In this document: positions 623 through 1,377 of the stretch, piece by piece
How the letters are laid out: every line of letters begins with the position of its first letter
Numbering within the stretch: the first letter of the stretch is position 1
NCBI GenBank assembly: GCA_016783545.1
Contig: JADHWJ010000002.1
Location: 1,617-65,616, forward strand
Reading direction: 5' to 3'
DNA from: Candidatus Aenigmatarchaeota archaeon
Lineage (GTDB): Archaea; Aenigmatarchaeota; Aenigmatarchaeia; QMZP01
Length of the DNA stretch: 64,000 bases
Made by a program: the position numbers and the translations under genes
The notes under the pieces: model-generated
Databases searched by the model: none
What the model saw: only the letters and a program-made list of their open reading frames with translations
What the model was told of the DNA's origin: nothing

Positions 623-1084
623 GTGAAGATGACAAACTGTTGGAGTTCTATCATGCGACAGCCTCTCCATATTGTGCTGGCTCTGGGTGTCTTTGCCGCG
701 GTTTGCGTTTATGCGCTTCTGGCAAGAGATGCCCGCGCGGACGTCGTAACAGCTAAGGACGTGGTGGCGATCACGAAGGCCGAGAAGGCAACAGTTGACA
801 CGGCGATTGAGTTGAAGATGACCAAGGCGCTCGATGAAGACATCGGGGCCAGCAGCACCCGGATGGCCGCAACGGAGAACGAGAAGAAGAGCAGCGACAG
901 TGCGAATGACGACAGCGTATTGGTAGTGGCGAACATCACCGGCGATGCCCGGGCGGCCCCTACAGCCAAGAAGCTGGCGAGCTCGAGCGACAGCACGGCG
1001 GCAAGAACGATCGAAGCCATCGGGATCGGCGGTGTGAACGACAAGACCCTGACAGCCGGCGCCGTGGCCTACGCCCTATTGTGA
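623..1084 (+). CDS. Orphan signal-anchored Ala/Thr/Asp-rich protein
   Basis: Hydrophobic N-terminal segment HIVLALGVFAAVCVYALLA; GC-rich codons; start could be 623, 629 or 653. Confidence 0.7.
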   Translation: MKMTNCWSSIMRQPLHIVLALGVFAAVCVYALLARDARADVVTAKDVVAITKAEKATVDTAIELKMTKALDEDIGASSTRMAATENEKKSSDSANDDSVLVVANITGDARAAPTAKKLASSSDSTAARTIEAIGIGGVNDKTLTAGAVAYALL

Positions 1085-1162
1085 GGAAGATGATCCTCTT
1101 TTGGGTATGGTCATGGTAAGAACTACCCCCCTCGGTCAGGACAGCTTCTGGCCGGGGGTAGT

Positions 1163-1211
1163 GGGGATAGGTGATGTTGACCTTGTGGTTCAAATCCACA
1201 TATCCCCTCCA
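1163..1211 (+). ncRNA. tRNA-like mini-structure (acceptor stem + T-arm + CCA, no D-arm)
   Basis: GGGGATA/TATCCCC 7-bp stem; TGTGG-TTCAAAT-CCACA T-arm; ends T-CCA. Confidence 0.5.
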
Positions 1212-1299
1212 ATTCGCCTCCGCCTCCCGGACAGGCGCAGCCCCAGATCAAGCGACACCCCAATATTCATGATGAGGTGGTGCTCGCTTGGTCTTTATA

Positions 1300-1316
1300 T
1301 TGTCATTTAAGCGGGA
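1300..1316 (+). repeat. Conserved site copy TTGTCATTTAAGCGGGA
   Basis: Matches the consensus TTGTCATYTTAANGGGA seen in 13 copies. Confidence 0.8.
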
Positions 1317-1377
1317 TATATATCATTGTCGAAAGGTAAAATTTACATTTAAAAGTATTATTGGATAAACATATCCT

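What the first reader, a model, noticed from the sequence alone, without database searches (positions are those of the whole stretch)
1163..1211. 49-nt tRNA mimic (acceptor stem + T-arm + CCA) in the 3' region of island 1
Seen: GGGGATA-[GGT GATGTTG ACC]-T-[TGTGG TTCAAAT CCACA]-TATCCCC-T-CCA. This is a perfect 7-bp acceptor stem, a canonical 5-bp T-arm with a TTCRAAT loop and an encoded CCA, but no D-arm and only a 3-4 bp stem with a 7-nt loop. It directly follows a ~16-bp hairpin (1121-1162). Known: such top-half mimics are substrates for RNase P, RNase Z and CCA enzymes (tmRNA tRNA-like domain, mascRNA, Y RNAs). Inference: a processing or stability signal for island transcripts, or a relic of a tRNA integration site.
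Basis: partly seen in the sequence, partly recalled or inferred. Interest (0 to 1): 0.68.

Follow-up and report, generated by a model that had tools for sequence, protein, structure and literature searches.

The report
Truncated tRNA-like stub in archaeal cassette
A 49-base stretch in a tiny symbiotic-type archaeon really is the "top half" of a transfer RNA (acceptor stem, T-arm and CCA, with no D-arm or usable anticodon arm) sitting behind a foreign gene; it most likely marks a cutting site for tRNA-trimming enzymes, but it has no relatives anywhere and its use is untested.

Summary
Window 1163-1211 (+) reads exactly as described: a perfect 7-bp acceptor stem, a canonical 5-bp T-arm with loop TTCAAAT, discriminator U and CCA, directly after a 17-bp hairpin (1122-1162).

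It is not chance. Shuffled genomes give about 0.005 such elements. The acceptor and T-arm are identical to those of a real bacterial tRNA-Ile.

It is not a tRNA gene, a split tRNA or an att remnant:
- ARAGORN and Rfam reject it, and it has no D-arm or usable anticodon arm.
- No tRNA of this genome, or of 300 genomes of its class, has this 3' end.

It lies in the 3' non-coding part of an orphan GC-rich foreign cassette in a 36% GC DPANN genome. The genome holds one other element of the same build (M2, in a foreign tRNA island), also just behind a hairpin. None occurs in 46 family genomes, metagenomes or viral contigs.

My best reading (about 0.45) is a t-element-type stub. RNase P would cut at 1162/1163 and leave the upstream mRNA capped by the hairpin.

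The main rival (about 0.3) is an inert remnant of a foreign tRNA. Nearest-neighbour folding prefers an extended hairpin over the T-arm by 3.5 kcal/mol. No RNA data could be obtained.

The parts
653..1084 (+). Orphan cargo ORF of island 1 (143 aa, N-terminal signal-peptide-like segment)
   Evidence: One search lists the ORF. It hits only itself among 5.8 billion proteins. GC by codon position is 0.60/0.49/0.74, typical of a real GC-rich coding sequence.
1083..1102 (+). Small hairpin plus TTTT directly after the stop codon (weak terminator-like site)
   Evidence: There are only four T, so read-through into the downstream structures is plausible but not shown.
1122..1162 (+). Hairpin H1 (9+8 bp) whose last base abuts the first base of the tRNA-like element
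   Evidence: -26.5 kcal/mol, z -4.9, and 0 of 200 shuffles fold as well.
1163..1169 (+). 5' acceptor strand GGGGATA
   Evidence: It pairs perfectly with 1201-1207, with pair probability 0.86-1.0 in the ensemble.
1170..1183 (+). 14-nt linker replacing the D-arm, anticodon arm and variable loop; it can form GGT/ACC with a 7-nt loop or pair with the T-arm
   Evidence: It resembles both an Ile anticodon loop (UGAU..UGAC, 8/10) and an Asn one (UGUU.ACC, 7/8), so its ancestry is undecidable.
1184..1200 (+). T-arm TGTGG-TTCAAAT-CCACA
   Evidence: It matches the GGTTCRANYCC motif used to define t-elements (PMC1920247) and is identical to the T-arm of a Nomurabacteria tRNA-Ile(GAU).
1201..1211 (+). 3' acceptor strand TATCCCC, discriminator T, encoded CCA
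   Evidence: Native tRNA genes of this genome do not encode CCA, whereas two of the three intact tRNA genes of the foreign island do.
1215..1237 (+). Small hairpin downstream of the element
1245..1294 (+). Terminal hairpin of the island
1296..1322 (+). Conserved end box TATATTGTCATTTAAGCGGGATATATA that closes the island
   Evidence: It is repeated 22 times in this genome at up to 3 mismatches and occurs in 17 other family genomes.

Best explanation
M1 (1163-1211) is a tRNA-derived 'top-half' element. It is a foreign, CCA-encoding tRNA that has lost its D-arm and anticodon arm but keeps an intact 12-bp acceptor/T-arm minihelix. It was carried into a DPANN archaeon inside a GC-rich gene cassette.

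It works like a t-element. When the cassette is transcribed through it, RNase P cuts between 1162 and 1163. The upstream mRNA then ends in the 17-bp hairpin H1, which would shield it from 3' exonucleases. tRNase Z or exonucleases, together with the CCA-adding enzyme, would trim the released roughly 46-49-nt stub.

Shown: the anatomy, its non-random nature, its foreign origin, its co-orientation with the cargo, and a second element of the same build.

Inferred: transcription through the element, formation of the T-arm in vivo, and the cleavage itself.
For: - The top half is fully canonical: 12 of 12 Watson-Crick pairs, G53:C61, the GGTTCRANYCC motif, a discriminator and CCA.
- Chance expectation is about 0.005 per genome.
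- The acceptor and T-arm are identical over 31 nt to a real tRNA-Ile(GAU) of a Nomurabacteria MAG. That was the only exact hit for the 23-nt 3' part among 185,579 species genomes.
- The genome holds just one other such element, M2 (C7:29240-29289). It lies in a foreign island of tRNA genes and has a nearly equal linker (15 against 14 nt) and the same orientation as its island.
- Both elements start 0-1 nt after a hairpin. Only about 3% of island positions lie 0-2 nt after a simple hairpin.
- The generic top-half model scores M1 at 46.4 bits and M2 at 40.4 bits, against 34.3 or less for the 3' halves of real tRNAs.
- The enzymes are plausible. An archaeal CCA-adding enzyme is present at 452 bits. 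RNase P RNA is found in 32 of 47 family genomes, including 6 of 6 high-quality ones.
- There is precedent. t-elements downstream of ORFs create mRNA 3' ends through RNase P in plant mitochondria (PMC1920247). In Haloferax, t-elements are cut by RNase P and tRNase Z in vivo (PMC4326828).
Against: - There is no homologue anywhere, so there is no covariation or conservation. The search covered 46 family genomes, 105 kb next to end boxes in 17 relatives, and metagenome and viral contigs.
- Only 2 of about 30 islands carry such an element, so it is not a standard part of the cassette.
- Predicted thermodynamics favour an extended hairpin over the T-arm by 3.5 kcal/mol.
- A weak hairpin-plus-T4 site after the stop codon could end transcription before M1.
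- RNase P RNA was not found in this 70%-complete assembly. Only a weak, partial RNase Z-like MBL protein was found.
- M2 has U at position 57 and no clean CCA, as a decaying copy would.
- If the islands are recent imports, intact helices need no selection.
Confidence: 0.45

Rival explanations
1. M1 is an inert relic. It would be a foreign tRNA gene that suffered an internal deletion, in the donor or after transfer, and now sits as dead DNA in the 3' non-coding part of the cassette. Its helices are intact only because the import is recent.
For: - The island is an orphan and still about 58% GC in a 36% GC genome, which suggests a recent arrival.
- M2 lies among intact foreign tRNA genes and shows decay: U57 and no CCA.
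- No such element exists in 46 relatives.
- The predicted fold does not favour the T-arm.
- Truncated tRNA copies next to mobile DNA are common (own knowledge).
Against: - Two unrelated stubs each keep both acceptor strands and the T-arm while losing exactly the D and anticodon arms, with 14- and 15-nt linkers. Each also abuts a hairpin. Random deletions rarely do this twice.
- None of the 24 stem bases is disrupted.
Confidence: 0.3
2. M1 is tRNA-derived sequence now acting simply as one more stem-loop of the island's 3' region. It would fold as the extended 16-bp imperfect hairpin and serve as a transcript stabiliser or terminator, or as a DNA-level palindrome. tRNA enzymes would play no part.
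For: - The MFE structure is the extended hairpin at -20.7 kcal/mol, with the linker GTG and TTGACC pairing with the T-arm.
- The 3' region holds three other hairpins.
- The minus strand folds almost as well, at -19.3 kcal/mol.
Against: - A plain hairpin does not need a perfect GGTTCAAATCC T-loop, G53:C61, a discriminator and CCA.
- The fold z-score is only -2.7.
- Energy models omit T-loop tertiary stabilisation.
Confidence: 0.12
3. M1 is an att-site remnant: the displaced 3' part of a tRNA gene left by an integrative element.
For: The position at the end of a foreign island and the encoded 3' end of a tRNA fit the classic picture.
Against: - The 5' acceptor strand is present too.
- No tRNA in this genome is similar.
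- No tRNA within 3 mismatches exists in 300 genomes of the class.
- The native tRNA-Ile(GAU) has an unrelated acceptor, GGGCTCG.
- Native tRNAs lack an encoded CCA.
Confidence: 0.03
4. M1 is a working but aberrant tRNA: armless, split, permuted or intron-laden.
For: The native tRNA genes here are unusual, with introns even in the T-loop, so odd tRNA genes are expected. Relaxed ARAGORN draws poor cloverleaves through the region.
Against: - There is no 5-bp anticodon stem and no U33.
- ARAGORN finds no tRNA at default settings, and Rfam finds none even at E<=10.
- The relaxed ARAGORN models have 3 unpaired acceptor positions and a 4-nt 'anticodon'.
- No partner 5' half with GGGGATA plus a D-arm exists, and no complementary leader lies at a tRNA-like site.
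Confidence: 0.02

Closest known systems
t-elements: tRNA-like processing signals of plant mitochondria (Forner et al. 2007, PMC1920247) and of Haloferax volcanii (Hoelzle et al. 2008 and 2012, as cited in PMC4326828)
   Same: Both have an incomplete cloverleaf that keeps an acceptor-like stem and a conserved pseudouridine arm (GGTTCRANYCC). Both are placed next to an ORF or RNA whose end they would define. In the known cases RNase P makes mRNA 3' ends at downstream t-elements and tRNase Z or the CCA enzyme acts on the stub.
   Different: No transcript ends or cleavage are known for M1. M1 is shorter (46 nt plus CCA) than most t-elements, encodes its CCA, sits in imported GC-rich DNA of a DPANN archaeon, and has no conserved relatives.
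MALAT1 / mascRNA and MEN-beta tRNA-like 3'-end modules (PMC8457004, PMC11693755)
   Same: The layout is the same: a stable protective structure lies immediately upstream of a tRNA-like element, so that RNase P cleavage creates a protected 3' end and releases a small tRNA-like RNA that receives CCA.
   Different: Those are eukaryotic nuclear lncRNAs. Their protective structure is a triple helix, not a hairpin, and mascRNA keeps D-like and anticodon-like arms. This is an analogy only, not homology.
Truncated tRNA-like stubs in phage and virus tRNA islands
   Same: They are 46-51-nt acceptor/T-arm minihelices lacking the anticodon arm, placed next to hairpins or structured RNAs in mobile DNA.
   Different: Those notes report conservation among related phages. 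M1 and M2 have no relatives, and no viral origin of the islands could be shown.
Partial tRNA copies at attL/attR of integrative elements
   Same: Both are tRNA-derived sequence at the edge of foreign DNA.
   Different: att remnants copy the 3' (or 5') part of a resident tRNA gene only. M1 has both acceptor strands and matches no resident or lineage tRNA.

Membership tests
Canonical tRNA gene (Rfam RF00005) | Four-arm cloverleaf recognised by ARAGORN or the covariance model | tested here: not met
   ARAGORN finds 0 genes in the window. Rfam finds no hit at the gathering score or at E<=10. RF00005 run over the whole genome does not list it at E<=1.
Canonical tRNA gene (Rfam RF00005) | 5-bp anticodon stem and a 7-nt loop with U33 and a purine at 37 | tested here: not met
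   Only a 3-bp stem (GGT/ACC) is possible. The loop is GAUGUUG, with A at the U33 position.
Canonical tRNA gene (Rfam RF00005) | 7-bp acceptor stem stacked on a 5-bp T-stem with a T54 T55 C56 R57 A58 loop | tested here: met
   All 12 pairs are Watson-Crick and the loop is TTCAAAT.
t-element (tRNA-like processing signal) | Conserved pseudouridine-arm motif GGTTCRANYCC within a non-canonical cloverleaf closed by an acceptor-like stem | tested here: met
   GGTTCAAATCC lies at 1187-1197 and the 7-bp closing stem is 1163-1169/1201-1207. The criterion comes from PMC1920247.
t-element (tRNA-like processing signal) | Transcript 5'/3' ends coincide with the element's borders; cleavage by RNase P and/or tRNase Z | not testable with these tools
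t-element (tRNA-like processing signal) | Processing enzymes present in the organism | tested here: inconclusive
   The CCA-adding enzyme is present. RNase P RNA is absent from this 70%-complete assembly but present in 32 of 47 family genomes. Only a weak partial RNase Z-like protein was found.
t-element (tRNA-like processing signal) | Predicted fold adopts the T-arm | tested here: not met
   The MFE and the ensemble favour an extended hairpin, and the tRNA-like fold is 3.5 kcal/mol less stable. The model ignores T-loop tertiary contacts, so this lowers the claim but does not exclude it.
att remnant of an integrative element | Identity to the 3' part of a resident tRNA gene | tested here: not met
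   There is no similar tRNA in the genome. In 300 genomes of the same class, only this genome's own copy matches within 3 mismatches.
att remnant of an integrative element | Only one part of the tRNA is duplicated (no complementary acceptor strand) | tested here: not met
   Both acceptor strands are present.
Split or permuted archaeal tRNA | A partner half-gene elsewhere with a complementary leader or trailer | tested here: not met
   No GGGGATA followed by a D-arm exists anywhere in the genome. The few 10-mers complementary to the putative leader lie at non-tRNA sites.

The most novel reading that the evidence does not exclude
The 'hairpin plus top-half tRNA stub' is a deliberate RNA punctuation module of a previously undescribed archaeal gene-cassette system. 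RNase P cleavage at the stub would give cassette mRNAs (M1) and structured spacer RNAs (M2 island) hairpin-capped 3' ends. This would be an archaeal counterpart of the MALAT1/mascRNA mechanism, and the released stub could have a role of its own, for example as a decoy for enzymes or defence nucleases that recognise tRNA.
Probability: 0.15. Interest if true: 0.6.

Novelty: new member of a known kind. Interest (0 to 1): 0.35.

Why it matters
If the stub is cut in vivo, it would be the first t-element-type mRNA 3'-end signal in a DPANN archaeon. It would also show that imported cassettes bring their own RNA-processing punctuation, which bears on how these tiny genomes express foreign GC-rich genes. 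If it is inert, it still has value as a marker. Together with the CCA-encoding tRNA genes of the other island, it shows that the GC-rich islands come from a donor whose tRNA genes are unlike those of the host lineage.

Tried and rejected
- **Standard and relaxed tRNA finders.** ARAGORN default finds nothing. With introns allowed, genome-wide, it does not call M1. At 70% and 50% thresholds and in mitochondrial modes it gives only junk cloverleaves with unpaired acceptor positions, a 4-nt anticodon, or the T-arm misread as an anticodon arm.
- **Rfam.** No hit at the gathering score or at E<=10.
- **Assigning an isotype to the ancestor.** The exact match to tRNA-Ile(GAU) looked decisive. However, viral tRNA-Gln and tRNA-Asn genes share the same acceptor and T-loop, and the linker resembles the Ile and Asn anticodon loops about equally. 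I dropped the Ile claim.
- **Homologues of the cargo protein.** Only a self hit.
- **Homologues of the 3' region in the family.** Only the end box recurs.
- **Collection scans.** Exact and degenerate patterns found nothing in metagenome or viral contigs. The 3' ends of the other island's tRNA-Thr and of M2 found nothing in viral contigs.
- **MAFFT alignment of M1 with M2.** The register was wrong. I replaced it with an alignment anchored by spliced top halves of real tRNAs.
- **Single-sequence model R1.** It was too sequence-specific to be useful.
- **Python scan of relatives' loci.** I used the covariance model instead.
- **Split-tRNA partner search.** Negative.
- **Hoelzle 2008 paper.** Not held.

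Full report
**Observation**

- All 12 pairs of the acceptor and T stems are Watson-Crick.
- G53:C61 is present.
- GGTTCAAATCC fits the GGTTCRANYCC pseudouridine-arm motif (PMC1920247).
- The hairpin in front spans 1122-1162 with 9+8 bp, -26.5 kcal/mol and z -4.9. Its last base touches the first base of the element.

**Is it more than chance?**

I scanned both strands of the whole 886-kb genome for a 7-bp acceptor, 0-32 nt, and a 5-bp T-stem with an NTCNANN loop. Only two elements fit: this one (M1) and one other (M2).

| Pattern in 100 block-shuffled genomes | Hits per genome |
|---|---|
| Relaxed pattern | 1.7 |
| With a TTCRA loop | 0.29 |
| With an NCCA tail | 0.02 |
| With GC-rich stems | 0.11 |

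The combination seen here is therefore expected about 0.005 times per genome. In addition, the 23-nt 3' part has one exact match among 185,579 species genomes. That match is the T-arm and acceptor of a tRNA-Ile(GAU) gene of a Nomurabacteria MAG, which also starts with GGGGATA. The element is genuinely tRNA-like and almost certainly tRNA-derived.

**It is not a tRNA gene**

- ARAGORN, Rfam at the gathering score and at E<=10, and RF00005 over the genome do not call it.
- There is no D-arm.
- The only possible 'anticodon' stem has 3 bp, and its loop has A where U33 should be.
- Relaxed and mitochondrial ARAGORN modes produce only defective cloverleaves.
- No partner half-gene exists.

**Folding caveat**

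The nearest-neighbour MFE of the 49-mer keeps the acceptor stem but pairs the linker with the T-arm, giving an extended imperfect hairpin.
- The extended hairpin scores -20.7 kcal/mol. The tRNA-like fold scores -17.2.
- The T-arm pairs have probability 0.003.
- T-loop tertiary contacts are not modelled, so this weakens the tRNA-like fold but does not exclude it.

**Context**

The genome is an 886-kb, 36% GC, 70%-complete archaeal MAG. Earlier notes place it in Aenigmarchaeota, which I did not check.

M1 lies in a roughly 0.9-kb island of 50-60% GC. The layout, all on the + strand, is:

| Feature | Coordinates |
|---|---|
| Orphan ORF | 653-1084 |
| Weak hairpin plus T4 | 1083-1102 |
| Hairpin H1 | 1122-1162 |
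| M1 | 1163-1211 |
| Small hairpin | 1215-1237 |
| Terminal hairpin | 1245-1294 |
| End box TATATTGTCATTTAAGCGGGATATATA | 1296-1322 |

The ORF hits only itself among 5.8 billion proteins and has coding-like GC3 of 0.74. The end box recurs 22 times in this genome and occurs in 17 other family genomes. The genome has about 30 such GC-rich islands, 34 kb in all.

**Origin**

- The native tRNA genes of this genome carry introns, some inside the T-loop. They never encode CCA, and their acceptors are unrelated to M1. The native tRNA-Ile(GAU), for example, starts GGGCTCG.
- No genome among 300 of the same class has a sequence within 3 mismatches of M1's 3' 24 nt.
- These results reject the reading 'remnant of a host tRNA used as an integration site'.
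- Two of the three intact tRNA genes in the other GC-rich island (C7) do encode CCA. M1 therefore belongs to the imported material.
- I could not name the ancestral isotype. Viral tRNA-Ile, tRNA-Gln and tRNA-Asn genes all share this acceptor and T-loop, and the linker resembles the Ile (8/10) and Asn (7/8) anticodon loops about equally.

**A second element, and a search for the class**

M2 (C7:29240-29289, +) reads GAGAAGG, 15 nt, GTGGG-TTCTAAT-CCCAC, CCTTCTC.
- An eighth acceptor pair is possible.
- Position 57 is U, and there is no clean CCA.
- It lies among foreign tRNA genes and starts 1 nt after a 6-bp hairpin.
- Only about 3% of island positions lie 0-2 nt after a simple hairpin.

I built a generic top-half covariance model, R2, from M1, M2 and 12 spliced top halves of real tRNAs. 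Because M1 and M2 are training sequences, their scores are favoured by construction.

| Search with R2 | Result |
|---|---|
| M1 | 46.4 bits |
| M2 | 40.4 bits |
| 3' halves of real tRNAs | 34.3 bits or less |
| 46 other family genomes | best hits 35 bits, all 3' parts of ordinary tRNA genes with mismatched pseudo-acceptors |
| 105 kb next to end boxes in 17 relatives | nothing above 25.8 bits |

Degenerate pattern scans of metagenome and viral contigs found no short forms. The class is therefore confined, so far, to two orphan copies in this one genome.

**Enzymes**

- An archaeal CCA-adding enzyme is present at 452 bits.
- RNase P RNA was not found in this incomplete assembly. It is present in 32 of 47 family genomes, including all six high-quality ones.
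- Only a weak, N-terminal RNase Z-like match exists, in a 257-aa MBL protein.

**Mechanism and rivals**

I commit to the t-element reading at about 0.45. On read-through transcription, RNase P cuts at 1162|1163. The cargo mRNA then ends in hairpin H1, and the stub is trimmed and CCA-repaired.

This is the layout shown experimentally for t-elements downstream of ORFs in plant mitochondria (PMC1920247) and for engineered t-element constructs in Haloferax (PMC4326828). It is analogous to MALAT1/mascRNA (PMC8457004).

The main arguments for it are:
- The top half is flawless.
- The same truncated architecture occurs twice independently.
- Both copies abut a hairpin.

The main arguments against it are:
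- There is no conservation.
- The fold prediction is unfavourable.
- A possible terminator lies upstream.
- M2 shows signs of decay.

| Rival | Odds |
|---|---|
| Inert relic of a foreign tRNA | about 0.3 |
| Tamed hairpin with no tRNA-enzyme role | about 0.12 |
| att remnant | about 0.03 |
| Odd functional tRNA | about 0.02 |

**Limits**

With no homologues, no covariation test is possible.

Noticed in passing
G000:C7:29240-29289 (+), locus L014 741-790: A second top-half tRNA-like element (M2). It has a 7-8-bp acceptor, a 15-nt linker and the T-arm GTGGG-TTCTAAT-CCCAC, and sits 1 nt after a 6-bp hairpin in the GC-rich tRNA island. Its T-stem equals that of the neighbouring tRNA-Thr(GGU), while its acceptor differs at four fully compensated pairs.
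   Followed up: partly
G000:C17:63188-63244 (-), C8:46091-46150 (-), C2:28191-28288 (-), C18:4925-4979 (+): Native tRNA genes appear to be interrupted at non-canonical sites, including inside the T-loop. As a result ARAGORN finds only 5 intron-less tRNAs and RF00005 only about 10 above its cut-off in 886 kb. None of the native genes encodes CCA. The true tRNA set of this genome is largely undetected by standard tools.
   Followed up: partly
whole genome G000: RNase P RNA (RF00373) was not found in this assembly at E<=1, although 32 of 47 family genomes have it. Several native tRNA genes have a TATA-like box about 27 nt upstream of base 1, which might mean leaderless tRNA transcripts.
   Followed up: partly
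window 1123-1131, 1154-1161, 1163-1170, 1201-1207: Hairpin H1 and M1 share near-repeated strands: CTACCCCC / GGGGGTAG and GGGGATAG / TATCCCC. Alternative crossed pairings are therefore possible, for example 1154-1160 with 1201-1207 as a 7-bp stem with one G-U. This could be a duplication trace or a conformational switch.
   Followed up: no
window 1083-1102: A small hairpin, GAGGAAGATGATCCTC, followed by TTTT overlaps the stop codon of the cargo ORF. It may be a weak archaeal terminator that decides whether M1 is co-transcribed.
   Followed up: no
G000:C13:28249 (-): The 12-mer GGGGATAGGTGA, identical to the first 12 nt of M1, occurs in another GC-rich island (C13:27601-28560). About 0.1 such matches are expected by chance, and no T-arm follows it.
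   Followed up: no
L016 520-594, L031 451-525, L032 1066-1139: In three relatives an ordinary tRNA gene lies 0.3-1 kb upstream of an end box and is co-oriented with it. tRNA genes may be preferred neighbours of these boxes.
   Followed up: no
L083 and L087 (IMG/VR contigs): Two related viral contigs carry arrays of 33-36 tRNA genes. The arrays include a tRNA-Ile(GAU) with the same acceptor stem and T-loop as M1.
   Followed up: no
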